In this document: positions 4,246-20,556 of the stretch, in pieces
How the letters are laid out: each line of letters starts with the position of its first letter
How positions within the stretch are numbered: position 1 is the stretch's first letter
From: Staphylothermus hellenicus DSM 12710
GTDB lineage: Archaea > Thermoproteota > Thermoprotei_A > Sulfolobales > Desulfurococcaceae
Assembly: GCF_000092465.1 (NCBI RefSeq)
Contig: NC_014205.1
Span: 450,001-482,000, forward strand
DNA length: 32,000 nt
Reading direction: 5' to 3'
Notes under the pieces: generated by a model
What the model was told of the DNA's origin: nothing
What the model saw: only the letters and a program-made list of their open reading frames with translations
Database searches by the model: none
Program-made: the position numbers and the translations under genes

Positions 4246-6078
4246 TCACACCTTTATCCTTGCCATATTTATGATCTCCTTCAGCTTTTCCTTTATTTCT
4301 CTTTTCAGACTATCAATTTCAATGCTTTTAGTGCTTCTGTAGGCATCATACATTCTGATAACCTCGTCTATCTCAGCCTTCACATCAGAGCTTACATCGT
4401 CCCTCATGTGCTTTAGCTGTGTAATGCATTTTTCTAAATCCTCAGTTTCTAGATATATCTCGATAATCATGGAGTGAGAATTTATTCTCAGCACCCTGTC
4501 CCTTGTCACCTTAATCTCCATTCCGAGCACCTCGGCAAGATCCATCAGCAACTCCCTGATGCTCTGGTAACGGTTCTCCTTGTTCTTCTCTAGGCATTTC
4601 ATGATTATTGGCTCTAAGAACTTTGCATCTGGGTTAAGCTTTGAGGGTGGGATGGGGTCTTCATTCAATATCTTATGTTTAACAGCTTCTTCGCTCTTAG
4701 CCTCGAAAGGAGGTTTCCCTGTAACGAGCTCATAGAATATTTGTCCGAGCTGGAATATATCTGTCTTCTCATCAACTGGCTCATCTTTAATCTGCTCCGG
4801 TGCAGCATAGAGCGGTGTGTAGCCTTTTGCCTTTCCACTGGTAAGCCTGCTCCTCCTTAGGACCTTTGCCATTCCCCAGTCAGTAATTTTAGGCTTGTCA
4901 TCTTTGATGAGAATATTGCCTGGCTTTAGATCAAGGTGGCATACGTTCTTTGAATGTGCATATCTTAATCCCTTAGCTATCTCGAAAATGAGGCGAGCAG
5001 CCTTCATTGGTGGTATAGGTTTCTCTATTCTGTCAAGTGAGTAGTCAGCTAGCTCCATCTCTATATATCCTCTTGGAACTACGTTGTAATCATAGATCCT
5101 CGCTATGTTTGGATGATCCATGGTTTTCCATATCGAGACCTCATCCACGAAGTTCTTACCCATCTTCTCGTCCCAGTACTTTGGTATCTTGACGGCAACA
5201 AGCCTCCCATCCTCCCTTCTCCTAGCCTTATAAACCCAGTAGTATCCTCCCTCTCCAATATATTTAGGCTCGGTATAATACTTAAGGAGATCCTTTGGAA
5301 AAGTGAGAATTATGTCTTCTCTCTTAACCTCAACTCCTCTTTCTATCTCTCCTACACCCATTAGTTTGACCTCCCTAACACTCTTCCTCCCGATCATTAC
5401 ATCGGTGCATCTCCTTATGTTTTCAACGCAAATATAGATGTGCGCATCCACCTCATCCTTTAACTCACTAATCTTGTTTTCCGCAATGTAGTCGCTCAGC
5501 TTCTCGAAGTAGTCACGGGCTCTCCTGTATGCTTCTTTGGCATTATAGTATTCTCGTTTATTGAAAAATTCTTCTCCATTTCTCATCATGTCCTCTCCTA
5601 TTTCGATGCGGGCCCTAACTATGCCAATCATAGCCTTCTTCTTCAGCTCATTATATTGCTTTTTTCCGAAGGAGATTTTGAAGGAGATGGAGTTTAAGTA
5701 TTCAAGGGTCTGGGAAAACCTCTTTTCCTTCGCTTTCCCCCTCTCCTTTGATGCAGCCTCTATCATCTTCCCAGCCTTTTCCAGCATGCAAGCTTCAATG
5801 CTTCTATCCATCTCTTTAATAGCTCCCAATATCTTCTCCCAATCCTCCCTGAAGTTGAAGCTTTTCGCTATTGATACAGCTTTCAAGTAGAGCTCCTTCG
5901 CATGTTTAAACTTATTCATAGCATCGTCAAACTTTTCGGAGTTGAAGAGTTTTTTAGCATCCCTCACAATCCTGTTTGCCTCATCAACAAGAGCGATCAT
6001 CTCCCTATTAGCCTTTGCTTTTTCAGCTTTTTCTATGTCCTCTTTGATACCATTTATTGTGCTCCTAAGCCTCTCCAC
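4246..6078 (-). CDS. Hanks-type Ser/Thr protein kinase with a long N-terminal helical region
   Basis: Motifs: LVAVKIP (VAIK-type lysine), HLDLKPGNILI (catalytic loop, HLD instead of HRD), ITDWGMAK (DFG equivalent), LYAAPEQ (APE). About 260 aa of helical/coiled N-terminal sequence. Confidence 0.9.
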   Translation of the reverse strand: MERLRSTINGIKEDIEKAEKAKANREMIALVDEANRIVRDAKKLFNSEKFDDAMNKFKHAKELYLKAVSIAKSFNFREDWEKILGAIKEMDRSIEACMLEKAGKMIEAASKERGKAKEKRFSQTLEYLNSISFKISFGKKQYNELKKKAMIGIVRARIEIGEDMMRNGEEFFNKREYYNAKEAYRRARDYFEKLSDYIAENKISELKDEVDAHIYICVENIRRCTDVMIGRKSVREVKLMGVGEIERGVEVKREDIILTFPKDLLKYYTEPKYIGEGGYYWVYKARRREDGRLVAVKIPKYWDEKMGKNFVDEVSIWKTMDHPNIARIYDYNVVPRGYIEMELADYSLDRIEKPIPPMKAARLIFEIAKGLRYAHSKNVCHLDLKPGNILIKDDKPKITDWGMAKVLRRSRLTSGKAKGYTPLYAAPEQIKDEPVDEKTDIFQLGQIFYELVTGKPPFEAKSEEAVKHKILNEDPIPPSKLNPDAKFLEPIIMKCLEKNKENRYQSIRELLMDLAEVLGMEIKVTRDRVLRINSHSMIIEIYLETEDLEKCITQLKHMRDDVSSDVKAEIDEVIRMYDAYRSTKSIEIDSLKREIKEKLKEIINMARIKV

Positions 6079-6428: not shown

Positions 6429-6539
6429 GGTCCAAATAAACTCCCTTCCAAGGAGAATTTACAGCTTAGCTTCAACACTATAATATTTCATTAAAACATA
6501 TATAAATAAATAGCATTACTTCTTTTCTCTTTTCACCAC

Positions 6540-6760
6540 AGAATAGTGGTTCGGCCTATATAGGCTTTGATTAACCTACATAAGGCTTTCACACCGTTCT
6601 GGCTAGCTGTAGTTTTTGTTGCTCTTATTACGGCTAGCCTTTCCCTCTCTGGTTTCATGGGGGCTTTCGGGAGGAATGGGGTGCTCCCCGCATCTTCGGA
6701 TGCTTCTAAACCCGCGCCCATTCGGGCTTAGCTTTCCCCTACATATTGGGCGCAGACCCA
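6540..6760. ncRNA. GC-rich hairpin-dense island, candidate structured RNA of unknown family (strand unresolved)
   Basis: Perfect stems at 6601-6607/6633-6639, 6678-6681/6686-6689, 6690-6694/6699-6703 (UUCG loop on the + strand) and 6714-6720/6747-6753. TATA-like boxes are available for either strand (6507-6521 for +; reverse complement of about 6775-6790 for -). The 62-aa ORF here is judged spurious. Confidence 0.35.
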
Positions 6761-6852
6761 TATCTCATCAACTATACTAGATAAACACGCATATGAACAT
6801 TTCCTACGAAGCAAAATATATAAACGTTACGAAAGCAACGCTATATGTTTCA

Positions 6853-6951
6853 GCCCCGGCTAGGGAGCCCTGCACTTGGAGAACCTATGGACTCCCCCAC
6901 CGAAGACAGGTTAGTCTAGGGCTCATCTCCCTCGCTACCCTTATCGGGGTC
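6853..6951 (+). ncRNA. Second GC-rich island, candidate small structured RNA
   Basis: AAATATATAAAC box at 6824-6836, about 25 nt upstream. Terminal pairing GCCCCG (6853-6858) with CGGGGT (6945-6950). Internal GGGAG...CTCCC pairing. No tRNA T-loop. Confidence 0.3.
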
Positions 6952-7390
6952 GTTTACAATACTGCCACAAATACTTATCAATTACTTAATAGCTTCGATA
7001 GGCCTAAGCAAAGTTCTGTATATTCTGTATATTTGTGCTATAGGATCGATTTAGAAGAACTATGATGTTGATTCTGAAATATTAAAATATAGCTTGGAAT
7101 CTTTTAATCAAACCATACAATATATGGTGTATCATCTTTAATTAATAAGTCTAGCATCTTGAAGGTATATGGGGGTGTAATGTAAAATAGTGAAACTATC
7201 TAAAATCATACTTACCTGTAACATCTTCTAGACATCTACTAAAAACATAGAATATAACTTATATGCTATTATGTTTATTAAGCATATTATTGCTATCCAG
7301 TATAATATAACACGCCTCCTCCACGACACTAGAGATCAAAAATATAGTTTTGCTTTCTCAGCATTTACATGCTGGCGCTCCTGAAGAGAA

Positions 7391-7400
7391 TTTATATAAG
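7391..7400 (+). promoter_or_regulatory. TATA-like box TTTATATAAG upstream of the 7421-7641 GC-rich segment
   Basis: Strong TATA-like decamer about 25 nt before the abrupt rise in GC content. Confidence 0.35.
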
Positions 7401-7420
7401 TGGTTGCTTAATATTGTATT

Positions 7421-7641
7421 CTACTATGACCAGGCCTTCGCGCCCGATGTGAGGTAAGCTAGGCCTGAAGGGGTAGAAAACTTTAAGTATTCTAGATTAT
7501 GTCTTTCTACGTAGGGTGCTCTAGGGGTTGATGGGAGCTTTGCTCCGAGACCCATAGAGGCCTCCATGTAAATGGGAGGCCCGTGATGTTGGCCCCTGAC
7601 AGCCACCCATGACACCACAACCCTTCTTTTTAGGATTGTGG
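7421..7641 (+). ncRNA. GC-rich structured segment: independent sRNA or long structured leader of ORF 7701
   Basis: Perfect stems at 7431-7437/7461-7467, 7534-7538/7542-7546 and 7559-7565/7575-7581. Hairpin 7615-7641 carries a T5 run (7627-7631) in its loop. Wobble pairs favour the + strand. Confidence 0.35.
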
Positions 7642-7700
7642 GAGAGTGGGAGTCCCTACCACAAGCACAAACATATAGAATGACACAGTAGAGACAAACG

Positions 7701-8846
7701 GTGATGACTGTGCCGTACTGGAGGGTTAATAGGGCTATTGCACGGGACTTATTCGGTGTGGAGAGCAGTGATGTTGATAGGCTTATTGCTGCAAAGGTGC
7801 GTAGTGTTAGGAGGAGAATGCCTGGGAAGTCTAGCCTGCCCGGGGAGATATGTGGTTCGGGGATACTTGCCTACCATCTAGAACTTTATTATTGTTTAGA
7901 GAAGTTTAAGAATGAAGTATCGGTGCTAAGATATGTTTCGGAGGATAGACGGAGGGCCAAGGTTTTCTTGCTCCACACCATCCTTGGCTTACTCTGGCCA
8001 AGGCTCCTAGCACTAGAGACTACACATTTACCCATAGACAAGTATGGAAAGAATATTGTAGAGGCTGTTAAGACAGAGATGCGGGGTATATTAGCCAATT
8101 TTAACCCAATAGATATCCCAATAAGTCTTCATAGCTGCCTACAACTAAAGGAGGCATTCAAGGAGATACTGATCCAGCTCCCGGCTATGCTTAATGATAT
8201 ATACAGGCACCCTACCGTAAGAAGGCAACTAGCAAGAGATGTCAAGTGGAGGATGAGGTATGAGGAGTGCATGAAGAATCTACTTACATCCTCTTTAGAA
8301 GGGGAAAAATCAGCTGGAATAGGGAATGTCCTTCCCCTCATATTCAGCAAGCAATATAGGGTGACTATTGGTAAAGATGAGATAGTGTTTCAAGACATAA
8401 ACAATCCTAATCGAAAAACTGTTATTAAGGGGGACAAATGCTTCCGCATCCTGCTTAGATCAATTCTCAGAGGCCGTCGAATGAATTCTAAAGACAGGTT
8501 TGAATGGTTAATGGATAGGGTGTCTAGGTTCTCCGCTACGCACTCACGCCTCCTAGATCTATTCCTACTAGCACCATTCACAATCAAGGATATATATTAT
8601 TTCCTTCTAGATACCGATGAGAACGATCTATTCTCCACTTTATTCTCTCTAGGAACCAATGTTCTAAAATCCTGTAAGGATCAGGAAGACGATGAGACCC
8701 TCCGCAGGAAGATAATAGACATGGTTGATTCGAGCTGGCGGTCCGATCTGAAGGAATATAATATCCCCCTGCTGGAGGGATGTGCCGAAACGTATGCGGA
8801 TACTTTCATAGCTGGGTACAAGCTTGTGAAAAGTATTACCAGATAA
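7701..8846 (+). CDS. Hypothetical protein (orphan, mostly helical), next to the CRISPR remnant
   Basis: 381-aa ORF with no motif recognised. Noticeably GC-richer at its 5' end than neighbouring genes (34/60 G+C in 7801-7860 by hand count). Confidence 0.6.
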   Translation: MMTVPYWRVNRAIARDLFGVESSDVDRLIAAKVRSVRRRMPGKSSLPGEICGSGILAYHLELYYCLEKFKNEVSVLRYVSEDRRRAKVFLLHTILGLLWPRLLALETTHLPIDKYGKNIVEAVKTEMRGILANFNPIDIPISLHSCLQLKEAFKEILIQLPAMLNDIYRHPTVRRQLARDVKWRMRYEECMKNLLTSSLEGEKSAGIGNVLPLIFSKQYRVTIGKDEIVFQDINNPNRKTVIKGDKCFRILLRSILRGRRMNSKDRFEWLMDRVSRFSATHSRLLDLFLLAPFTIKDIYYFLLDTDENDLFSTLFSLGTNVLKSCKDQEDDETLRRKIIDMVDSSWRSDLKEYNIPLLEGCAETYADTFIAGYKLVKSITR

Positions 8847-8938
8847 AGATCCTGTAAAACAATTATTATATGGAATCACCGTGTCCGGGGCGCACATAGG
8901 CGTTTCCAAGCAGAGTAGACAAGGAAACAACCTGCCAA

Positions 8939-9084
8939 GTAACAATATAGAAAGGATTGAAAGTTTTATTGTTTTTATGGTATTATATTTATGAGTCATT
9001 CTATTAATGGTCTTGCCATTATTAGTCCAGTACTTCTCCAAGCTGGGTAGCTGTATAGAGTAATAGTATAGATAGAATTGAAAA
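8939..9084 (+). CRISPR. CRISPR array remnant: two degenerate repeats (8939-8963 GTAACAATATAGAAAGGATTGAAAG; 9060-9084 GTAATAGTATAGATAGAATTGAAAA)
   Basis: Both align with the repeats at 10849-11070. The 96-nt gap between them is too long for one spacer, so a unit has probably been lost or eroded. Confidence 0.5.
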
Positions 9085-9124
9085 TGTTTTGTTTTTTATA
9101 TTTGTTTTGAATGGAGTGGTTGTT

Positions 9125-9262
9125 TTATTGTTGGGTTTGTTGAATGTTTATGCATTCTTCTGTATCTATTGCTTTGGTACTGGATTCTAGTGCTTTTCTT
9201 TTCCTTTCAATTTTTCTAGATTGTTTCCATATAGCTATTGCTGATGCATCTAGTAGAAACAT
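9125..9262 (-). pseudogene. vapC: Truncated PIN-domain toxin (vapC remnant, 45 codons)
   Basis: The ATG overlaps the vapB stop (TAATG). It begins MFLLDASAIAIW, as PIN domains do, then runs into an inverted CRISPR-repeat-like sequence and low-complexity sequence and stops. Too short for the ORF track. Confidence 0.55.
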
Positions 9263-9489
9263 TATCTCTTCAACCTATCCTCTCTTATAGCTTCAACAAT
9301 TTCCTTTTCAGATATTGCGGAGAATAGATCACCCAGATCTCTAGAAGCTTTTCTAGCTTCTTCTAGCTCCCTTCTCTTCACCTCTTCCTCTAAAGCTCTA
9401 CGAATAACCTCGCTAATTTTAATCCCATACCTGTCAAGCTTTTCCTTGAGCCTGCGCGGTATTCTTGCACTGACCGTTACACTTGTCAT
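9262..9489 (-). CDS. vapB: Ribbon-helix-helix (CopG/VapB-type) antitoxin
   Basis: 75 aa. N-terminal beta-strand plus two helices (VTVSARIPRRLKEKLDRYGIKISEVIRRALEEEVKRRE) is the typical RHH signature. Followed by the PIN-like remnant. Confidence 0.75.
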   Translation of the reverse strand: MTSVTVSARIPRRLKEKLDRYGIKISEVIRRALEEEVKRRELEEARKASRDLGDLFSAISEKEIVEAIREDRLKR

Positions 9490-9727
9490 ATAATATACCT
9501 CTCATAATACAATAAATGATTACCACAAATAAATATTTATCCCGTAAATAATTGGTTAACTATGCAGAACTATTGTGAAATCAGGATTAACACTGCTTCG
9601 TATTGAGATCCCAGCCCTATTCAGCTCTAATAACGTTATTGTTTCTTGTAGCGATAATGTTTTCTGATGTTATTAATGTATTATTTCAATATATGGGTGT
9701 GGGAATATATGGATTTATAGGAGGGGG

Positions 9728-10672
9728 ATGTGGTGTTTGATACCTAGGCTTTTCTATTTTGATACGAGGTTTTATTCTAAGGAGTATGTTAGGGTTTCTG
9801 GGTTGGATCTGTTTATGGGTTTGGATAGGGGTAGGGAGCTTGTTAGGTATAAGCTTGTATTTAAGGGTTTAGTGGTTCAAGAGGAGGGTTCTCATACACT
9901 ACACTTAATTGTTCCCGGTGAGAAAATTGTTTTTGTGGAGAGCTATGTGGAGTATTGTCATTGGCATAATGGTCCTTTGAATAGGAAGGATAATCCTTTG
10001 GAGCGGGAATACTGTGTTAGAGAAGCAGTTTCAGAACTAGGATACTGCACTAAGCATAGGAACAGTGTTAGAGCAATATATTCTAAATGCTTCTCAACCT
10101 CAGGGCTTGAAAGCTTGAGGAACTGCTGGATACTAGATGAGAAATACAAGGATAAAATAAAATATACAGTATACCTACTAGCCTACAATAAAGACAAGTT
10201 CAAAGTAGGAACAACAAGATCTTGGAGACTACTAGATAGAATAGCTGAGCAACCACACGTAGCAGCAACAACACTATATGAATCAAACAGCGCAGTAGAA
10301 ACGAGAAACATAGAGATCAAAGCCGGAAAACTAGAAGGACTAACAGAAAAACCACATAGAAAACTAAAAGAAACAATAAAAACACCAATACCACCAACAC
10401 TACTAAAACTAGAAAAAACACTCACAAAAACACAGCGAATCCTAGGAATAAAACAAACAAAACAACCAACAATATTCCGAATAGAACCAAGCACAGAAAT
10501 AACAGAATACCACAAAGCAAAAGAAACAAACCTAAAACAAATAATAGGAAAACAACTAATAATACAAGACTACTACGCAGGACACCTACTCCTAGAAGAA
10601 ACAAACACAAACACAAAATACCTACTAAAAACAAACCAAATACTACACACACCAAGCATAAAAACAACCTAA
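9728..10672 (+). CDS. Hypothetical protein with a Cys/His cluster and a T5orf172/GIY-YIG-like segment; extreme intragenic composition gradient
   Basis: 314-aa ORF. Contains CHWH...C...C-x2-H (YCHWHNG...EYCVREAVSELGYCTKH) and YTVYLLAYNKDKFKVGTTRSWRLLDRIAEQ. The 3' half is stop-codon-poor on both strands, so ORF length alone is weak evidence there. The start is uncertain (9728 ATG or 9815 ATG). Confidence 0.5.
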   Translation: MWCLIPRLFYFDTRFYSKEYVRVSGLDLFMGLDRGRELVRYKLVFKGLVVQEEGSHTLHLIVPGEKIVFVESYVEYCHWHNGPLNRKDNPLEREYCVREAVSELGYCTKHRNSVRAIYSKCFSTSGLESLRNCWILDEKYKDKIKYTVYLLAYNKDKFKVGTTRSWRLLDRIAEQPHVAATTLYESNSAVETRNIEIKAGKLEGLTEKPHRKLKETIKTPIPPTLLKLEKTLTKTQRILGIKQTKQPTIFRIEPSTEITEYHKAKETNLKQIIGKQLIIQDYYAGHLLLEETNTNTKYLLKTNQILHTPSIKTT

Positions 10673-10848
10673 ACCCACCATAAAAACCAATCGAACACCT
10701 ATCATTATACAAACCCGTCAAGGGGTCAGCGATACTATTTAACATATAGTAAACCAGTCGAACACGATCAAACAAGGGATCAAATAGAGAAAATAATATA
10801 TAGTTCTTCGAACAAAAACAATAAATGTAACAATTTATTCGAACCAAC

Positions 10849-11070
10849 GTAACAACCTAGAAAGAATTGAAGGAAATTGAAGAAAAACGTTAGGGTTTTC
10901 GAAGATGGATCGATAGTAACAACACAGAAAAAAATTGAAGGATAAAGTTGCTTATAACATCTGACCATTCAACTGTTTGAGTAGCAATACAGAAAGAATT
11001 GAAAGATTATTTTGCTAAGTTTTTGCGAATATTCAGGATCAGCTATGTACAACATTGAAAGAATTGAATG
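10849..11070 (+). CRISPR. Degenerate CRISPR array: 4 repeats (24-26 nt), 3 spacers (42, 39, 41 nt)
   Basis: Repeats at 10849-10873, 10916-10941, 10981-11005 and 11047-11070, with a 65-67-nt period. Consensus is about GTAACAAYNYAGAAAGAATTGAAAG, with the crenarchaeal-type 3' end ATTGAAAG. All copies differ from one another. Confidence 0.75.
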
Positions 11071-11190
11071 TAATAACCATTATCAACATGGGTTGTGGTA
11101 GCAAAAAGTTTTCATACTATCACCTATATTAATAGTATTGCAGAATAAAACCACAAGGGTAAACAGCTTACAATAGCTTATAATAGCTGA

Positions 11191-11460
11191 TTAGTACTCT
11201 GTCATTATGATTGCATACATTATAATCAATAATACTATGATGACGGATAGTATCAGCCCTGTCGCTAAGCTCACTAATAGTATGGATAAAGCTTTTCTTC
11301 TAAGTCTCCATAATATATAGGCTGCAGCATAGATTGATGGCAGGATTATATACCAGTACCTAAGAGAGATAATGAGTAAGTCTCTAAACAGAAATATTAA
11401 GGTGGGAGGCAACAGTATTGTTAATAATAATGCTATAACAACGTAATGAATGGTTTTCAA
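11191..11460 (-). CDS. Small putative membrane protein (about 3 TM helices)
   Basis: 89-aa ORF. TTG start preceded by AGGGGG 5 nt upstream. Positive-inside residues (RLRRKA). It lies in a region that may be eroded CRISPR array, so it may be spurious. Confidence 0.4.
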   Translation of the reverse strand: MKTIHYVVIALLLTILLPPTLIFLFRDLLIISLRYWYIILPSIYAAAYILWRLRRKALSILLVSLATGLILSVIIVLLIIMYAIIMTEY

Positions 11461-11577
11461 TCAAACCCCCTGTAAAGAATAATGAATAATGTTTTAAAAA
11501 ATATTGTTTATTTTCTAGGGTTATCCCTGTATAAGCTCGCTTAGATACGTTGTATCTTCAGTATGTATACTGCGCTA

Positions 11578-11731
11578 GGTGATGGCATAAAAGAATTGAG
11601 AGCATGGAAGATAGTAGAATAGATCTATATTTATTTCCCTGGTCGCATCAATGATAGAATTGAATAATAGATTCTTTAATATTAGAGTAATCATTATCTT
11701 CAATATAGGATATTTTGGGAAGAATTGGAAA
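11578..11731 (+). repeat. Three weak CRISPR-repeat-like motifs with CRISPR periodicity (ends AGAATTGAGAG 11602, AGAATTGAATA 11666, AGAATTGGAAA 11731)
   Basis: The AGAATTGR core recurs at 64-65-nt spacing, roughly in register with 66-nt units counted from 11070. Confidence 0.35.
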
Positions 11732-11843
11732 TATAGTATTTTTGTATATAGAATTTTATTATACTTCATTGAATGCTGGTTAAAAAGTATTTGTTTATTT
11801 AATTATGGAAAAATATTTTGTTTTACTAATAATGGATCATTTG

Positions 11844-14681
11844 TTATAGTTTTTCTCTTAGTCTTAGCATGGCTAGTGCTAGGAGACGCGATAGTTTATC
11901 GAAGTTTGATACTAGTGTTTCGTTGATTTTACCTGTACTGTATTTTTCTATAATTGTTTTTGGATCTAGGGAGATTGTCAGTATTCCTTTATCTGTTAGT
12001 TGTTTGATGAATTTTTCTATTTTTGGTAATCTATTATAGATGTATATGTATGCTATTAGGTATTCAATTATCCTCCTATAATATTCATTTTTCTTCTCAG
12101 CATTTTTCTCTCTCTGATACTTATAGTAGTATTCTACAATGCTTCTAGAAATTTGGAGTAGTCTATATGATTGTTGTTTATTATTAGTTATCCACTGCTT
12201 TATTTCTTCGTCAAGGCTTTTGTTCATTAATATATTGTATAGGCTCCACGGAATAGATCCTATACCTTCAACATTAATAGATAATGGTTCTACGAATACT
12301 CTATTCCTCCCCTCATCTTTTGCTTTCTCGAGTGATTGGACAACTTCTTTATATGATAAATATGATGGATAATTACTTTCTCTAAGGATCATGCCGGCGG
12401 AAATGGTTAGTGCATCTACACCGTTTATTTTGCCGAAGAACTTCATGAACCAATCATGATAATATTGTAGATAATATAGTCCTTCAACGAATCTAGCAAT
12501 AACTAGTGAGTCATCTCCACCACTATAGATAACTGCGATTCTATTCCTCAATAATGGATTCGTGTTATCCAGCAACTTAGCTCTTTTATACAGTATGAGG
12601 TGGCCAATCAGATTAGTATATAGACTAACTAATTCATTGAAAGTAGCATATCTACCTAGGGAGCCGATGAGGTGGAGCCCTGTATAACCCATATGGTCCC
12701 CGTCAATTTTTAGCCATGATAGTAGTGTATAATTATCATCTACTCTGGCTAGGTCGTCGAGCTCGTTTTGGCGAAGAGATACATTTGTAAATATTACTGA
12801 GAACCCTACATGTGTGTTTTTAATTTTCTCTAAAATACTTATGAGATCAACTAAGTCTTTTCCACGTGGTATGAAGTTTCCGGGATCATTGTTTTTATAT
12901 ATAATTATTGATACTTTTTCCTCCCCACCATATTTCTTAATAAGGTTGGCAAGTACTACTTCTATGAATGATTTTAGAAAAGCCCAATGACCAGTTTCTC
13001 CCCCTGAGAGATCAGATATTATGATATATGTTGTATCAAGTCCTTTAAGCGGTACTATTCCATATTTAGCATTTATCGCAGATATTTTATTTATGAAAGA
13101 CTTAATGTTTCCTTTTCTGAGTTCTTCGAATAATTTATCAGTAATATCCTTGCTTCTAATCTCTATTATGTATACAAGATTTTCAGCGGCATAGCCTGCT
13201 ATATGAGATAATAAGCATGATGGACAAATTCTCTCAATATCTTCCTCAAGCCCGATCTCCTGTGTAATTTCTTTGTTAATAGGTACTAGGTTATCCTTGA
13301 AAAGCGTTGCTTTACATAATGGGCATTCATCTGGTTCTCTATCATCATTATCGTCTATAATGGTGTTCTTAGCGAGAATGCTTTGATCAACCAGTTTGAA
13401 TTTTTGCCTCTTAGACCTAGAAACTTTTCCTCCAAGATCCAATAATGCTTTAGAGAAGCCCTTCTCTACGAACTCGTTAGACCATGGAGACTGATATGAT
13501 GGCGTAAAGGGTTCTGATAATCCATATGTAACATATATGTCTCCGTGGAATAGCTCGTATATGGCTTCCTCTATTTTTTCAATAGCATTATTGAAGGTTT
13601 TCTCATCAATAGTTTCGGGCAGTATGAATACTGCGGAATCGCCCCGTTCAAGGATCATGTGGGAAATGTTTAGTTTAAGTTCTTTCAGTAATTTAATAGA
13701 TGAAGCTTTCATTACGAGTTGTAATAGTAGTGAACGTCCTCTAAGCTGTCTTAAAGCACCCTTACGTCTAGCATAAGATGATATGAATTTCTGTATACCA
13801 CTTAGATCCAGCAATCCTATTCTAATCCTACATTCAGAGCCTTCATAGCAACCGGATAATATGTATGATGATGCTAAGGCCATGGTTAAGATAGAGTGTG
13901 ATGAAAGATTTGTTGAAGGAATATCAACACCATAGAGAGCATTGGGTACAAATATAAATGAGTACCTAATATAGTTCACCAGGGTCTCTAAGAGTTCTTC
14001 AACACCCATTACGCCAGCAAACGCGGTCTTTCCTAGTTCACGCAGTATTTCAACCAGATCCTTATAGATCTCCGCATAATACTCCCTAACACCGTGATCA
14101 TTTTTCTTCTCTTCATGAAAACAGTTTACCGCCCTAAGAATATTTTCTAAATCCTTTTCTATATCCTCCATATCTTTTTCAGAACTCCTCCCTCTTAGCA
14201 CCGACATAATTGAAACAGGTTTATAACATATAGTCGATTCTCGAGGTAATTTCTCTATATTATGATCACTACTTCTACCGTGTCTATAATAGTTTATAAT
14301 CCATAATGGAGAAACCAAATAGTTTGTAATGCTTTTCTGTTTAGAATATATTTCATCACCCATATTCCGTTCAGAGGCAGAACTGCGATCAGCTTTTTCA
14401 AGTATATATAGTAGGTCCTTAATGGTTTCCGGAGGTTTAAACCCCCTTAAAGCATGGTGATGATACCTTACTAGAAGCCTAATAGTTTCAGGATTAAGAC
14501 CAATGTATTCAAAGAGATCCCTATACTCATTTATAAGTCTCGCACCAAGATCATCATGAGTCCTATAATTCTCAGCTACTCCAATCCCAGCTCTCTGAGG
14601 AATTTTGCCAATATCATGCAGTAATGCAGCAAATAATAATTCGTAATACCCTAAAGATCTTTTTGATCCACCCATATACAA
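11844..14681 (-). CDS. cas10: Cas10 (Csm1/Cmr2-type large subunit) with an HD nuclease domain and an intact GGDD cyclase motif
   Basis: 945 aa. N-terminal LLHDIGK plus YHHH (HD domain), LLDLSGIQKFI (Palm1), CPLC...CPSC zinc finger, KIDGDHMG and VIYSGGDDSLV (Palm2 GGDD). Confidence 0.9.
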   Translation of the reverse strand: MYMGGSKRSLGYYELLFAALLHDIGKIPQRAGIGVAENYRTHDDLGARLINEYRDLFEYIGLNPETIRLLVRYHHHALRGFKPPETIKDLLYILEKADRSSASERNMGDEIYSKQKSITNYLVSPLWIINYYRHGRSSDHNIEKLPRESTICYKPVSIMSVLRGRSSEKDMEDIEKDLENILRAVNCFHEEKKNDHGVREYYAEIYKDLVEILRELGKTAFAGVMGVEELLETLVNYIRYSFIFVPNALYGVDIPSTNLSSHSILTMALASSYILSGCYEGSECRIRIGLLDLSGIQKFISSYARRKGALRQLRGRSLLLQLVMKASSIKLLKELKLNISHMILERGDSAVFILPETIDEKTFNNAIEKIEEAIYELFHGDIYVTYGLSEPFTPSYQSPWSNEFVEKGFSKALLDLGGKVSRSKRQKFKLVDQSILAKNTIIDDNDDREPDECPLCKATLFKDNLVPINKEITQEIGLEEDIERICPSCLLSHIAGYAAENLVYIIEIRSKDITDKLFEELRKGNIKSFINKISAINAKYGIVPLKGLDTTYIIISDLSGGETGHWAFLKSFIEVVLANLIKKYGGEEKVSIIIYKNNDPGNFIPRGKDLVDLISILEKIKNTHVGFSVIFTNVSLRQNELDDLARVDDNYTLLSWLKIDGDHMGYTGLHLIGSLGRYATFNELVSLYTNLIGHLILYKRAKLLDNTNPLLRNRIAVIYSGGDDSLVIARFVEGLYYLQYYHDWFMKFFGKINGVDALTISAGMILRESNYPSYLSYKEVVQSLEKAKDEGRNRVFVEPLSINVEGIGSIPWSLYNILMNKSLDEEIKQWITNNKQQSYRLLQISRSIVEYYYKYQREKNAEKKNEYYRRIIEYLIAYIYIYNRLPKIEKFIKQLTDKGILTISLDPKTIIEKYSTGKINETLVSNFDKLSRLLALAMLRLREKL

Positions 14682-18576: not shown

Positions 18577-19239
18577 TTGGAGGGGAATTTATTGGTTAAT
18601 TTATATTTAGTTATTGTGAGATCTGATCAAAAAGTTAATACTTCAGTAATTAATAGTATTTTGGATCTTGTTAATGAGCTTTTTATTTCTTGGTTTAATG
18701 GTTCTTATCATAATGGGTTGTTTTTTGGAGTTATTAGTGATTTTTATGGTTTAAAGGATGTAGCCTTGGCTTTTTATTCATTAATTGCTTCTTTTATAAA
18801 AAATATTAGGATATATGTTTTTGATTATAATGATCTTTTATTATATATATTTAATGGTGTTAAAGGTAGATCCGTTAGTTTTTCTACGATTCTCTCTAAA
18901 TCCGCATATGTAGGTTATATTATTGCTTGTAATAAGGGGTTTCCAAGGGCTTCGAAAATTAGATTGAATGAACAGATTATGGATAACGTTTGTAGAAGCT
19001 ATGGTATAAAAGAATATGTGTCTACGAGTTCTATAAGGGAGAAATGCATTATGGATAAGCTTAGTGGTAGTATTAAGTATGGAAAATACGTAGTAAATAT
19101 ATTATTTAAATGCGACAGTGTAAACGATCTATTGCAGCTTTTGAGACAAATTATATTAATGGGTATTTTTAGTGATAAGTTGTTTATCCAAGAATGTGTA
19201 ATTAAACCCTTATGGAGAATTCATGAGAATAAACAATAA
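18577..19239 (+). CDS. Hypothetical protein divergent from the type III operon (candidate accessory; alternating beta/alpha N-terminal pattern)
   Basis: 220-aa ORF. TTG start, with GGAGGGG just inside, so the true start may be TTG at 18592. No diagnostic Cas6, CARF or HEPN motif seen. Confidence 0.55.
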   Translation: MEGNLLVNLYLVIVRSDQKVNTSVINSILDLVNELFISWFNGSYHNGLFFGVISDFYGLKDVALAFYSLIASFIKNIRIYVFDYNDLLLYIFNGVKGRSVSFSTILSKSAYVGYIIACNKGFPRASKIRLNEQIMDNVCRSYGIKEYVSTSSIREKCIMDKLSGSIKYGKYVVNILFKCDSVNDLLQLLRQIILMGIFSDKLFIQECVIKPLWRIHENKQ

Positions 19240-19503: not shown

Positions 19504-20046
19504 ATGAGTACTGATGATGAGTTGCTTAGGATACTGGAGAAGATTGCTTCGAGAATTGTGGAGAAGGAGAAAAAGAAGGAGGAGTATCGTAGCCGTGTTG
19601 AGTTCAGTGTTTTGAGCACGGATTCTCCGCATGGTATTTATGTTTATGATAAGGAGAAGGATAAGTGGGTTTTAGTAAAGAAGGAGAATGGGCCGTTCAA
19701 GCCTGATAAGGATGGGTTTCATATAGTATATTTTGATAATGTGAAGTGTCCTGCATGTAAAATATATGATTTGAGCTGGTACCCGTATGTTAGACTTGTT
19801 GGTTCAACACTTGAGAATACTTATTTCTACATAGTATATTGTGATTGGTTTGCTCAAGAATGCGATTCAGAAGCTGCGAGAAACAGTTTCAAACACTACG
19901 ATATACGTGCTTCGCCAACGACTCTGCTACTATATGTTGAGAATGGTGAGGTAAAGGATCAAAAGAAAGTGGAGGGTGCAAAAACGCTTGACAAGCTAGC
20001 ATCGATAATAGATGAATTTATTAGGAGAAACAAGAAAAAACAATAA
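19504..20046 (+). CDS. Thioredoxin-fold protein with a CPAC active-site motif
   Basis: 180 aa. FDNVKCPACKIYD (CxxC) and a downstream SPTTLL (cis-Pro-like) are consistent with a thioredoxin-like fold. Helical N-terminal extension. Confidence 0.65.
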   Translation: MSTDDELLRILEKIASRIVEKEKKKEEYRSRVEFSVLSTDSPHGIYVYDKEKDKWVLVKKENGPFKPDKDGFHIVYFDNVKCPACKIYDLSWYPYVRLVGSTLENTYFYIVYCDWFAQECDSEAARNSFKHYDIRASPTTLLLYVENGEVKDQKKVEGAKTLDKLASIIDEFIRRNKKKQ

Positions 20047-20049
20047 GAT

Positions 20050-20556
20050 CTATGTTTTATGTGGCCCCTCAAATCTCCAGATCTCCTCGTATAGATGCGG
20101 TATTATTTCTAAAAGTATTTTTAATCCAAGCTTCACAGCACCAGTAGAGCCTGGTAATGCAACAGCTATTCTACCATCATATAAAATAAATAGTTCAGCC
20201 CTACTAATTATTCCGCGAAAACCGATCTCTTCAAAAGATAAACGCCGAAACAACTCGCCGAAACCAGGTAGTTTTCGCCAAGCAATACTTTCCACAGTAT
20301 CAACAGTTATATCGCGAGGACCAGGACCTGTTCCACCAATAAACAATAATACATCGCCTCGACGCTCACGGATCACCTTAACGATCTCTCTAGGATTATT
20401 TGGAACAACAACTTTATCCACAACAACATATCCATTATTCTTCAATGTTTCAACAGCAACCTCACCACTCACATCCTTCTTCAACCCCTGAAAAACATTA
20501 TCACTAACAACTATAACTAAGAAACTAATACTCAAAACACCATCTCCCCACATCAC
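20050..20556 (-). CDS. moaB: Molybdenum cofactor biosynthesis protein B (MoaB/MogA family)
   Basis: 168 aa. Contains VVSDN...DVSG and FIGGTGPGPRDITVDTV, which are characteristic of MoaB/Mog. Confidence 0.8.
   Translation of the reverse strand: MMWGDGVLSISFLVIVVSDNVFQGLKKDVSGEVAVETLKNNGYVVVDKVVVPNNPREIVKVIRERRGDVLLFIGGTGPGPRDITVDTVESIAWRKLPGFGELFRRLSFEEIGFRGIISRAELFILYDGRIAVALPGSTGAVKLGLKILLEIIPHLYEEIWRFEGPHKT

What the first reader, a model, noticed from the sequence alone, without database searches (positions are those of the whole stretch)
9690..10700. Monotonic G+T to A+C (keto to amino) composition gradient inside a single ORF, with a synonymous-codon switch
By hand count, + strand G+T is about 72% over 9721-9900 (80% in 9781-9840). 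It is 45% in 10021-10080, 38% in 10201-10260, 30% in 10261-10320, 23% in 10321-10380, about 18% over 10381-10500, and 12% in 10621-10680. This all falls within ORF 9728-10672. Synonymous choices flip with it. Leu goes from TTG/CTT/TTA to almost exclusively CTA, Lys from AAG to AAA, Gly from GGT to GGA, and Val from GTT/GTG to GTA. The cause is therefore mutational or compositional rather than amino-acid selection. Deamination (C to U, A to hypoxanthine) of a strand exposed as ssDNA makes that strand G+T-rich. The pattern implies that the + strand was exposed on the left and the - strand on the right. Possible causes are convergent transcription, a local replication or termination asymmetry, or an element that replicated by strand displacement from both ends. 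The short block 9085-9150 shows the same + strand G+T richness. Milder 5'-end G/T enrichment is visible by eye in aspS and moaB. The skew also makes both strands stop-codon-poor, which creates long spurious antisense ORFs.
Basis: seen in the sequence. Interest (0 to 1): 0.7.

Follow-up and report, generated by a model that had tools for sequence, protein, structure and literature searches.

The report
Strand-skewed DNA flanking Staphylothermus CRISPR arrays
The extreme G+T-to-A+C gradient is real, but it belongs to the gene's position rather than to the gene: the gene lies between two CRISPR arrays (intact in S. marinus, decayed here), and in this hyperthermophile genus the DNA next to these arrays is strongly strand-biased, apparently by mutation.

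Summary
In ORF 9728-10672 (Staphylothermus hellenicus Shell_0503, DUF2797) the third-codon-position G+T fraction falls from 0.90 to 0.00. Among 564 control genes the largest such drop is 0.39.

The cause is not protein composition. About 28 orthologues from other genomes lack the gradient, non-coding flanks share it, and dN/dS is 0.19.

The gradient is shared only with S. marinus. There the gene sits between two same-orientation CRISPR arrays, and its stop codon lies 6 nt from a 170-nt leader. In the window that leader (10702-10848) survives with a decayed 4-repeat array (10849-11071). A lone repeat (8939-8963) remains from the upstream array.

All three S. marinus arrays show the same outward polarity: the strand running 5'->3' away from the array is G+T-rich. 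This holds whichever gene lies there (cas1 5' end 0.98; cas4, cas6 and DUF2797 3' ends 0.06, 0.08, 0.02). Forty-eight arrays in other taxa show nothing comparable.

Best explanation, inferred: outward transcription from the arrays and leaders, with deamination of the non-template strand at 85-92 degrees C. Outward repair or adaptation-linked DNA synthesis is a serious rival. I found no published description.

The parts
8939..8963 (+). Solitary degenerate CRISPR repeat (GTAACAATATAGAAAGGATTGAAAG). It is a relic of the array that lies upstream of the orthologous gene in S. marinus.
   Evidence: Two mismatches to the S. marinus repeat, with 0 matches expected by chance. Rfam CRISPR-DR27 at 35.3 bits, at the gathering score. 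Both changes (C8T, A17G) are in the keto direction on the + strand.
8964..9261 (+). Largely non-coding G+T-rich block on the + strand (K=0.67; 9085-9150 K=0.86). This is the former downstream (trailer-side) flank of the lost array. It overlaps a 45-aa remnant of a vapC-like ORF on the - strand (9125-9262).
   Evidence: The polarity matches the trailer flanks of S. marinus arrays 1 and 3.
9262..9489 (-). vapB antitoxin gene without skew. It is absent from the S. marinus locus and interrupts the G+T-rich zone. Context only, not part of the phenomenon.
   Evidence: NCBIfam TA_anti_VapB_Sulfo E=5e-10, below that model's cutoff. Third-position G+T about 0.55. Homology with S. marinus starts only at 9636.
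9636..9736 (+). Non-coding upstream and promoter region of the gene, conserved with S. marinus. G+T-rich (K=0.72; only 4 C in 101 nt).
9737..10672 (+). DUF2797-family gene (Shell_0503; alternative ATG at 9728). It is intact and under purifying selection. Third-position G+T falls from 0.90 to 0.00.
   Evidence: 23 full-length homologues. The window protein keeps all 48 columns that are invariant across the 15-sequence alignment. Identified as S. hellenicus DUF2797. dN/dS is 0.19 against the S. marinus-type orthologue P0001, which is 99.8% identical in DNA to F1. Codon-position profile.
9616..9938 (+). G+T-rich (keto) zone on the + strand.
   Evidence: 120-nt windows above 0.66. A>G and C>T differences dominate against the 77% relative: 50 toward keto, 8 toward amino.
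10154..10871 (+). A+C-rich (amino) zone on the + strand. It is strongest next to the leader and contains eight A>=5 runs (T>=5 on the - strand) and no T>=5 run.
   Evidence: G>A and T>C differences dominate: 40 toward amino, 1 toward keto.
10702..10848 (+). CRISPR leader, homologous to all three S. marinus leaders. It carries an almost invariant 20-mer, TCATTATACAAACCCGTCAA (one G/A difference in S. marinus leader 3), and repeated TCGAAC/TCGAAT motifs.
   Evidence: 83.5% identity over 170 nt to S. marinus leader 1. Alignments.
10849..11071 (+). Decayed CRISPR array of 4 repeats at 65-67 nt spacing, each 2-5 mismatches from the consensus, with 3 spacers.
   Evidence: Rfam CRISPR-DR27 at 38.8 bits for 10981-11005.
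10183..10847 (-). Two long antisense ORFs (10183-10515 and 10422-10847). They are probably artefacts of the stop-poor G+T-rich - strand.
   Evidence: Their translations are L/F/V/G/C low-complexity sequence.
11839..12077 (+). Mild G+T-rich stretch on the + strand at the 3' end of cas10/csm1 (- strand), downstream of the decayed array.
   Evidence: cas10 third-position G+T falls from 0.62 to 0.34 on its coding strand.

Best explanation
The gradient is a mutational footprint of the gene's position between two CRISPR arrays.

Shown. In Staphylothermus, DNA within about 0.3-0.7 kb of a CRISPR array or leader is driven toward G+T on the strand that runs 5'->3' away from the array. This happens at synonymous sites, in non-coding DNA and, more weakly, at amino-acid-changing sites. 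The DUF2797 gene lies downstream of one array, so its 5' half is G+T-rich, reinforced by its own promoter-proximal zone. It lies directly upstream of the leader of the next array, so its 3' half is A+C-rich. The two zones meet mid-gene and look like one gradient.

Inferred mechanism. The arrays and their leaders fire RNA polymerase outward. On one side this is read-through past the trailer. On the other it is divergent, antisense transcription from the leader. At 85-92 degrees C the displaced non-template strand suffers C->U and A->hypoxanthine deamination, which become C>T and A>G on that strand. The many oligo-T tracts this creates on the outward strand would terminate those transcripts progressively, which would explain the decay with distance.

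The skew is old and was maintained. Both species share it, and it persists in S. hellenicus although its array has decayed and no Cas1 homologue was found for it.
For: Mutational, not protein-driven:
- Third-position G+T falls 0.90 to 0.00, while about 28 orthologues from other genomes (30-77% aa identity) stay near 0.3-0.8 with no comparable trend.
- Non-coding segments share the skew.
- Substitutions against the 77% relative are 50:8 toward keto in the 5' third and 40:1 toward amino in the 3' third.
- dN/dS is 0.19.

Position-linked:
- In S. marinus F1 the gene lies between array 1 (L056:8817-9754) and leader 2/array 2 (10969-11752).
- Five of six array flanks are strongly skewed with the same outward polarity, in four different genes of both orientations. 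Third-position G+T on each gene's coding strand is 0.98 at the cas1 5' end, 0.06 at the cas4 3' end, 0.08 at the cas6 3' end, and 0.89 and 0.02 at the two ends of DUF2797.
- In 27 cas1 homologues elsewhere the 5' end averages 0.53 +/- 0.075.
- Orthologues without flanking arrays show no gradient.

Favouring transcription:
- Ordinary genes of this genome also have G+T-rich 5' ends on the coding strand (first minus last quarter +0.13, 84% of genes, p=8e-4; moaB 0.76, aspS 0.68, thioredoxin-like gene 0.86).
- The A+C zone has eight T>=5 tracts on the - strand and none on the + strand.
- The skew is still saturated in S. hellenicus although the array is decayed and no Cas1 homologue was found. This argues against a process that needs active spacer integration.

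Context: S. marinus was already listed as one of two archaeal chromosomes that strongly violate Chargaff's second rule (PMC2780954). S. hellenicus grows optimally at 85 degrees C (PMC3236042).
Against: - No transcript data were available, so the leftward promoter in the leader is hypothetical. Only weak TATA-like matches were seen by eye.
- The association rests on three arrays in one S. marinus locus plus relics in S. hellenicus. Nine further S. marinus arrays and two further S. hellenicus arrays (PMC2678158, PMC3236042) could not be fetched.
- The trailer flank of array 3 (cas6 3' end) is saturated about 950 nt from the leader promoter. That needs either very heavy read-through or promoters inside the array.
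- The trailer flank of array 2 is unskewed (K=0.50).
- Spacers inside the arrays are unskewed (K 0.46-0.49).
- The contrast between operon-first and internal genes is only marginal (p=0.055).
- Apparent A<->T transversions in the skew direction (11-27 per third) are not simple deamination products.
- Adenine deaminates much more slowly than cytosine in ssDNA (my own knowledge), yet A>G is as common as C>T. Saturation may hide the rate difference.
Confidence: 0.45

Rival explanations
1. Outward DNA synthesis or processing that starts in the arrays. Nicks or breaks arise from spacer integration, repeat recombination or fork collapse. Strand-displacement or repair synthesis, or recombination-dependent replication, then runs outward. 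The outward-growing nascent strand becomes G+T-rich, either through G.T misincorporation or through deamination while it is single-stranded.
For: The polarity is identical to that of the transcription model, and the symmetry of leader-side and trailer-side flanks is natural for this model. In the hyperthermophile Pyrococcus furiosus, protospacer hotspots flank active CRISPR arrays and switch strand at the first repeat. The authors attribute this to integration nicks (PMC5737086). That shows strand-specific DNA processing spreading out from arrays.
Against: Classical 5'->3' resection followed by deamination of the surviving 3' tail gives the opposite polarity (my derivation). Polymerase misincorporation is unlikely to give a bias above 50:1. 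S. hellenicus keeps saturated skew although no Cas1 homologue was found and its arrays have decayed. The 3' third differs from S. marinus at only 0.026 per site, against 0.22-0.26 per site in neighbouring non-coding DNA, so the pressure or constraint seems to have outlived the array. This model does not explain the G+T-rich 5' ends of ordinary genes.
Confidence: 0.22
2. The skewed flanks are selected for a function. They could be an extended leader or insulator: strand-asymmetric DNA that terminates outward transcripts at oligo-T tracts, lets sense transcripts through, excludes or recruits strand-specific binding proteins, or controls R-loops and unwinding next to the arrays.
For: The 3' third is ten times more conserved between the two species than adjacent non-coding DNA (0.026 against 0.22-0.26 differences per site), and its dS is 0.057 against about 0.3 in the rest of the gene. 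T>=5 tracts on the outward strand reach about 10 per kb, against 2.3-2.7 per kb for the window. The three S. marinus leader-upstream flanks share composition but not sequence.
Against: Low divergence is also what an extreme mutation-bias equilibrium predicts, because rare G/T states revert quickly. The skew persists next to a dead array in S. hellenicus. A termination or insulation role does not need 500 nt with 100% synonymous saturation or G enrichment. Forty-eight arrays in other taxa, including crenarchaeal ones with related repeats, lack it.
Confidence: 0.12
3. The gradient is intrinsic to the gene or its mRNA: a translational ramp or codon-usage gradient, a protein-composition gradient, or selected long-range pairing between a G+U-rich 5' half and an A+C-rich 3' half.
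For: The composition would allow the 5' and 3' halves to pair. A weak 5'->3' decline in third-position G+T exists in most Desulfurococcales loci (+0.02 to +0.07).
Against: Non-coding flanks share the skew. Orthologues lack it. The mRNA minimum free energy is -180.3 kcal/mol against -166.8 +/- 7.6 for block-shuffled controls (z=-1.8). The fold has 67 long-range pairs against 80 +/- 20 in controls, so there is no specific complementarity. The same skew appears at cas1, cas4 and cas6 ends according to array position, not gene polarity.
Confidence: 0.04
4. The gradient reflects a chromosomal replication terminus or origin, or a relic of a linear element replicated by strand displacement from both ends.
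For: Left-keto, right-amino is the polarity of converging forks, or of strand displacement from both ends.
Against: The skew spans less than 1.3 kb and returns to 0.5 on both sides. It recurs three times within 8 kb in S. marinus with alternating sign. The zones lie inside conserved chromosomal genes.
Confidence: 0.03

Closest known systems
Transcription-associated mutational strand asymmetry (non-transcribed-strand C>T and A>G; promoter-proximal T>A and G>C skews of eukaryotic genes; GC-skew and R-loop promoters, e.g. PMC3787257)
   Same: The coding (non-template) strand is enriched in G and T near transcription starts. The skew decays over about 0.5-1 kb and affects synonymous and non-coding sites.
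   Different: The magnitude here is near total (98-100% of third positions, against a few percent in the known cases). It reshapes the amino-acid composition. The strongest cases sit at CRISPR array flanks and include zones antisense to genes. The organism is an archaeon growing at 85-92 degrees C.
[quoted passage not shown]
   Same: An intragenic skew that reverses from 5' to 3', extends into flanks and fourfold-degenerate sites, and alters amino-acid usage.
   Different: The fungal sign is opposite (C-biased 5', G-biased 3'). The fungal pattern is genome-wide and weak and involves GC skew only. Here both GC and AT skews shift, the effect is extreme, and it is tied to neighbouring CRISPR arrays rather than to gene ends as such.
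Strand-switching protospacer hotspots around CRISPR arrays (P. furiosus, PMC5737086; the E. coli case as cited in that paper)
   Same: Strand-specific DNA transactions spread outward from a CRISPR array and change strand at the array.
   Different: Those are experimental spacer-sampling patterns with no reported compositional footprint. Here there is an evolutionary base-composition footprint and no adaptation data.
Replication-associated leading/lagging strand keto skew at origins and termini
   Same: The strand that spends time single-stranded, or is copied asymmetrically, becomes G+T-rich, and the sign switches at a defined point.
   Different: Replication skew is a chromosome-scale step of a few percent. 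This skew is local (about 0.5 kb), near-saturating, and repeated at each array.

Membership tests
DUF2797 (PF10977) protein family | Significant match to the Pfam model | tested here: inconclusive
   The window protein scores E=3.8e-4 and 20.8 bits, below the 25-bit cutoff. Ten of 15 aligned homologues match, best E=2.4e-7. NCBI names the exact sequence 'DUF2797 domain-containing protein'.
DUF2797 (PF10977) protein family | Full-length homology and conserved motifs shared with family members | tested here: met
   23 homologues cover 96-100% of the query. There are 48 invariant columns, including C77-x-W79-H80, C96, C107, H110 and K159-V-G-x-T-R164...E174-Q-x-H177.
CRISPR array with leader (crenarchaeal, repeat ending ATTGAAAG) | Regularly spaced direct repeats of about 25 nt with unique spacers | tested here: met
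   Four repeats at 10849, 10916, 10981 and 11046 with 65-67 nt spacing, but degenerate at 2-5 mismatches each. Two repeats reach the Rfam CRISPR-DR27 gathering score.
CRISPR array with leader (crenarchaeal, repeat ending ATTGAAAG) | Conserved leader upstream of the first repeat | tested here: met
   10702-10848 aligns to all three S. marinus leaders.
CRISPR array with leader (crenarchaeal, repeat ending ATTGAAAG) | Functional: identical repeats, adaptation genes present, transcribed | tested here: not met
   The repeats have decayed. No Cas1 homologue from S. hellenicus appeared among the hits. No type I-A cas remnants are in the window. Transcription could not be tested. The array is a relic.
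Transcription-associated mutational strand asymmetry | Non-template strand enriched in G+T at synonymous and non-coding sites | tested here: met
   True for sense genes and for non-coding DNA.
Transcription-associated mutational strand asymmetry | Direction and strength follow mapped transcription | not testable with these tools
   No RNA-seq or TSS data were available. Outward transcription from the leaders is inferred.
Transcription-associated mutational strand asymmetry | Spectrum dominated by C>T and A>G on the exposed strand | tested here: inconclusive
   Transitions in the skew direction dominate (50:8 and 40:1). However, 11-27 A<->T differences per third also follow the skew. Multiple hits cannot be excluded.
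Replication origin or terminus skew switch | A step change that persists over a replichore | tested here: not met
   The skew returns to about 0.5 within 1 kb on both sides, and the sign alternates three times in 8 kb of S. marinus.
Enzymatic cytosine-only hypermutation (RIP-like or APOBEC-like) | Only C>T / G>A changes | tested here: not met
   A>G / T>C changes are as frequent as C>T / G>A changes. GC content is roughly preserved (0.32-0.41 across the region).

The most novel reading that the evidence does not exclude
CRISPR arrays in Staphylothermus may be sites from which strand-asymmetric DNA synthesis or processing repeatedly starts and runs outward. The source could be integration-nick-primed strand displacement or recombination-dependent replication. 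The near-saturated keto/amino flanks would then be a permanent evolutionary record of that DNA transaction, a previously unrecognised mutagenic cost of carrying a CRISPR array at very high temperature.
Probability: 0.2. Interest if true: 0.85.

Novelty: new variant of a known kind. Interest (0 to 1): 0.7.

Why it matters
If the CRISPR link holds, this is the most extreme natural strand-specific mutational footprint I know of in a cellular genome. Every synonymous site over hundreds of bases is driven to two of the four bases, and conserved proteins (Cas1, Cas4, Cas6 and a DUF2797 protein) are forced to drift in composition while staying functional.

It would give a sequence-only readout of which strand is exposed, and how far, around CRISPR arrays in a hyperthermophile. 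It makes several claims testable: bidirectional leader promoters, read-through past trailers, and adaptation-linked DNA ends. It bears on how organisms living near 90 degrees C cope with deamination.

There is also a practical point. Such zones create long spurious ORFs on the opposite strand, and two read-based assemblies of this region end inside the leader.

Tried and rejected
- Protein-composition or codon-ramp explanation: rejected using orthologues, non-coding flanks and codon-position profiles.
- Selected long-range 5'-3' RNA pairing: rejected. The fold is no better than block-shuffled controls. The first attempt timed out.
- Replication terminus or linear element: rejected on scale and on recurrence.
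- A general property of CRISPR arrays: not supported. Forty-eight arrays in 80 metagenomic cas1 loci have 500-nt flank G+T of 0.36-0.69 with no consistent polarity.
- A 'second gradient' at 19504-20556: resolved as two convergent genes (a thioredoxin-like gene and moaB), each with a G+T-rich 5' end. The + strand ORF 20012-20491 is not the annotated gene.
- Extreme low-G+T windows in other loci: most are runs of N; one is a Thr/Ser-rich low-complexity protein.
- CRISPR relics next to the mildly skewed 77% orthologue (L003): none found.
- Source of the A+C-only spacer, and further Staphylothermus arrays in viral contigs: nothing found. One 19-mer leader match in a viral contig is unrelated GC-rich DNA.
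The S. hellenicus and S. marinus genomes did not appear in the genome-contig scan.
- Solved-structure search for the DUF2797 family: no significant hit.
- Polarised analysis of S. hellenicus-specific leader changes: no clear direction except in the first 25 nt or so next to the gene, where 6 of 6 changes go toward A/C.
Full report
**Observation.** Plus-strand G+T (K) falls from 0.80 (9781-9840) to 0.12 (10621-10680). Spearman rho is -0.97 over 60-nt windows. The signal sits mainly at third codon positions: by sextile of ORF 9728-10672, third-position K is 0.90, 0.70, 0.38, 0.17, 0.02, 0.00. First and second positions follow more weakly. The synonymous switches are as described, and Glu GAG to GAA, Arg AGG to AGA/CGA and Ile ATT to ATA switch as well. 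The first-minus-last-quarter third-position difference is 0.85. The other 19 window genes give 0.13 +/- 0.13, and the maximum among 564 genes in more than 50 related loci is 0.39. The 200-nt extremes lie outside the 0.1 and 99.9 percentiles of 800 kb of related genomes. Most other 'extreme' windows there are runs of N. Two independent read-set assemblies match the sequence, one with no mismatch and one with mismatches only in its first 16 bases.

**What the ORF is.** The window comes from Staphylothermus hellenicus DSM 12710. The ORF is Shell_0503, named 'DUF2797 domain-containing protein'. It has 23 full-length homologues in Desulfurococcales and other Thermoprotei. It retains all 48 invariant alignment columns. 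Its dN/dS against the S. marinus-type orthologue is 0.19. It is therefore a real, constrained gene, probably starting at TTG 9737.

**Mutational, not protein-driven.**
- About 28 orthologues from other genomes (30-77% aa identity) show no comparable gradient. The 77% relative has only a mild 3' A+C excess, and the 63% relative a mild 5' G+T excess.
- Non-coding DNA shares the skew: 9636-9736 K=0.72, 10673-10701 K=0.14, 8964-9261 K=0.67.
- Against the 77% relative, transitions toward G/T outnumber those toward A/C by 50:8 in the 5' third. In the 3' third the ratio is 1:40.
- The protein has been pulled along. K/N/T/Q/H/P make up 51% of the C-terminal third, against 26-38% in orthologues, and half of its codons consist only of A and C.

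**The key context.** Directly after the stop codon lies a CRISPR leader (10702-10848), followed by a decayed array of four repeats (10849-11071). A solitary repeat sits at 8939-8963, just before the G+T-rich block that includes 9085-9150.

In S. marinus F1 the orthologue (Smar_0313, L056:10001-10963) has the same gradient, 0.89 to 0.02. The two species are 89% identical across window 9636-10871. There the gene lies between two intact arrays of the same orientation:
- array 1 at 8817-9754, with leader 1 at 8647-8816;
- leader 2 at 10969-11137, with array 2 at 11138-11752.

A third array lies on the other strand (4703-5633), and its leader abuts the cas4 stop codon.

All three arrays have the same outward polarity: the plus strand is A+C-rich on the left and G+T-rich on the right. 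This holds whatever gene lies there and however it is oriented. Third-position G+T on each gene's own coding strand is:
- cas1 5' end (divergent from leader 1): 0.98, decaying to 0.53;
- cas4 3' end (upstream of leader 3): 0.06;
- cas6 3' end (15 nt from the array 3 trailer, convergent): 0.08, within a 0.71 to 0.08 gradient like that of DUF2797;
- DUF2797: 0.89 at the 5' end and 0.02 at the 3' end.

Only the trailer flank of array 2 is neutral. Twenty-seven cas1 homologues elsewhere average 0.53 +/- 0.075 at the 5' end. The 'gradient inside one ORF' is therefore two array-flank zones meeting in a gene that happens to lie between arrays. In S. hellenicus the upstream array has been lost apart from one repeat. 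A vapB cassette, absent from S. marinus and unskewed, now interrupts the former flank.

**Specificity.** Forty-eight arrays found in 80 metagenomic loci carrying Cas1 homologues have 500-nt flank K of 0.36-0.69 with no consistent polarity. Orthologues of the gene that are not next to arrays are unskewed. On present evidence the extreme effect is confined to Staphylothermus. S. marinus had already been listed as one of two archaeal chromosomes that strongly violate Chargaff's second rule (PMC2780954). The genome papers and the CRISPR papers I read do not mention flank skew.

**Mechanism.** The G+T-rich strand is always the one running 5'->3' away from the array. Three kinds of outward-moving process give that polarity:
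- (a) transcription, with deamination of the displaced non-template strand;
- (b) repair or strand-displacement DNA synthesis, or recombination-dependent replication, starting in the array;
- (c) selection for strand-asymmetric flanks.

Classical 5'->3' resection with deamination of the 3' tail gives the wrong polarity (my derivation).

I favour (a), for three reasons. First, ordinary genes in the same genome also have G+T-rich 5' ends on the coding strand (moaB 0.76, aspS 0.68, thioredoxin-like gene 0.86). The apparent second gradient at 19504-20556 is two convergent genes of this kind. Second, the A+C zone carries eight T>=5 tracts on the minus strand and none on the plus strand. Archaeal RNA polymerase terminates at such tracts (my knowledge), so leftward transcripts would be shed progressively, which would give the decay with distance. 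Third, the skew remains saturated in S. hellenicus, where the array has decayed, no Cas1 homologue was found and no type I-A cas remnants remain. The 3' third differs from S. marinus at only 0.026 per site, against 0.22-0.26 per site in adjacent non-coding DNA. That is what an ongoing extreme bias, or constraint, predicts. It is not what relaxation after loss of spacer integration predicts.

Weaknesses of (a):
- No transcript data, and no demonstrated leftward promoter. The leader's 20-mer TCATTATACAAACCCGTCAA, identical in three copies and one base different in S. marinus leader 3, is only a candidate.
- The cas6 flank is saturated about 950 nt from the leader promoter.
- The spacers are unskewed.
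- The contrast between operon-first and internal genes is marginal (p=0.055).
- A<->T differences also follow the skew.

Model (b) has real support from P. furiosus, where protospacer hotspots flank arrays and switch strand at the first repeat (PMC5737086). Selected RNA pairing between the two halves of the mRNA is not supported (z=-1.8, and no excess of long-range pairs).

**Comparison and novelty.** The phenomenon works like transcription-associated strand asymmetry and like the opposite 5'/3' skews of fungal genes (PMC3315797). It differs in sign pattern, in near-total saturation, in its tie to CRISPR flanks, and in occurring in a hyperthermophilic archaeon. I rate it a new variant of a known kind.

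The main limit on confidence is sample size: three arrays in one locus plus relics. A scan of the two complete genomes, which I could not fetch, would settle whether the CRISPR link is general.

Noticed in passing
window 10690-10845; L056 leaders 8647-8816, 10969-11137, 5634-5798: The CRISPR leader carries 4-5 copies of a TCGAAC/TCGAAT motif and an almost invariant 20-mer at its array-distal end, TCATTATACAAACCCGTCAA (one G/A difference in S. marinus leader 3). These are conserved across all three S. marinus leaders and the S. hellenicus relic. They may be binding sites or promoter elements.
   Followed up: partly
L056:9167-9206 (S. marinus array 1, spacer 6); also array 3, spacer 5: One spacer is almost pure A+C (AGACACACAAAAAAACACAACAACAACCCACAACACAACA, K=0.03), and another has K=0.18. 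Hyper-skewed DNA therefore exists in whatever these spacers were sampled from. No source was found in the held loci or in viral contigs.
   Followed up: partly
L056:3797-4687 (S. marinus cas6): cas6 shows the same within-ORF keto-to-amino gradient as the target gene: third-position G+T of 0.71, 0.66, 0.47, 0.36, 0.22, 0.08. Its stop codon is 15 nt from the last repeat of a convergent array.
   Followed up: yes
window 9125-9262 (- strand): A 45-aa ORF overlaps the vapB stop codon (ATGA overlap) and starts like a PIN/VapC toxin (MFLLDASAIA...). It then runs into A+C-rich sequence and a stop codon, so it looks like a truncated or decayed vapC that leaves vapB as an orphan antitoxin.
   Followed up: partly
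window 10729 (end of contigs L001 and L002): Two independent read-based assemblies of S. hellenicus both end at window position 10729, inside the leader. This suggests that the leader from there onward is repeated elsewhere in the genome. The genome paper reports 3 CRISPR arrays.
   Followed up: no
window 4246-6078 (- strand): A 610-aa protein combines a weak N-terminal HEPN match (just below the Pfam cutoff) with a Ser/Thr protein-kinase domain. It lies a few kb from the CRISPR-Cas region and may be defence-related.
   Followed up: no
window 6429-7700: A 1.27-kb stretch has no ORF of 100 aa or more, but has local GC peaks of 0.54-0.55 in a 37% GC genome. There are no tRNA hits and no Rfam hits at gathering score.
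   Followed up: partly
L024:10001-10915: The DUF2797 orthologue in an uncultured Desulfurococcaceae MAG is uniformly G+T-rich at third positions (0.71-0.80 along its whole length). The neighbouring aspS-like gene there also has a G+T-rich 5' region. Milder strand skews therefore occur in relatives.
   Followed up: no
L056:9074-9168 and 9468-9562: A 95-nt repeat-spacer-repeat unit is duplicated exactly within S. marinus array 1. This is an internal duplication of one spacer.
   Followed up: no
L140:5069-5087 (IMG/VR contig, GC 55%): A 24-nt identity to the S. hellenicus leader (CATTATACAAACCCGTCAAGGGGT) occurs in an otherwise unrelated viral contig. About one 19-mer match was expected by chance (my estimate), and the five extra matching bases are probably coincidence.
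   Followed up: partly
window 18577-19239, 19504-20046, 20050-20553, 7701-8846: The ordinary genes with the strongest G+T-rich 5' ends (third-position G+T 0.74-0.86) cluster within about 10 kb of the CRISPR-Cas region. In the 8 kb sampled beyond the window only one gene reaches 0.75. Whether this reflects expression level or lost arrays is unknown.
   Followed up: partly
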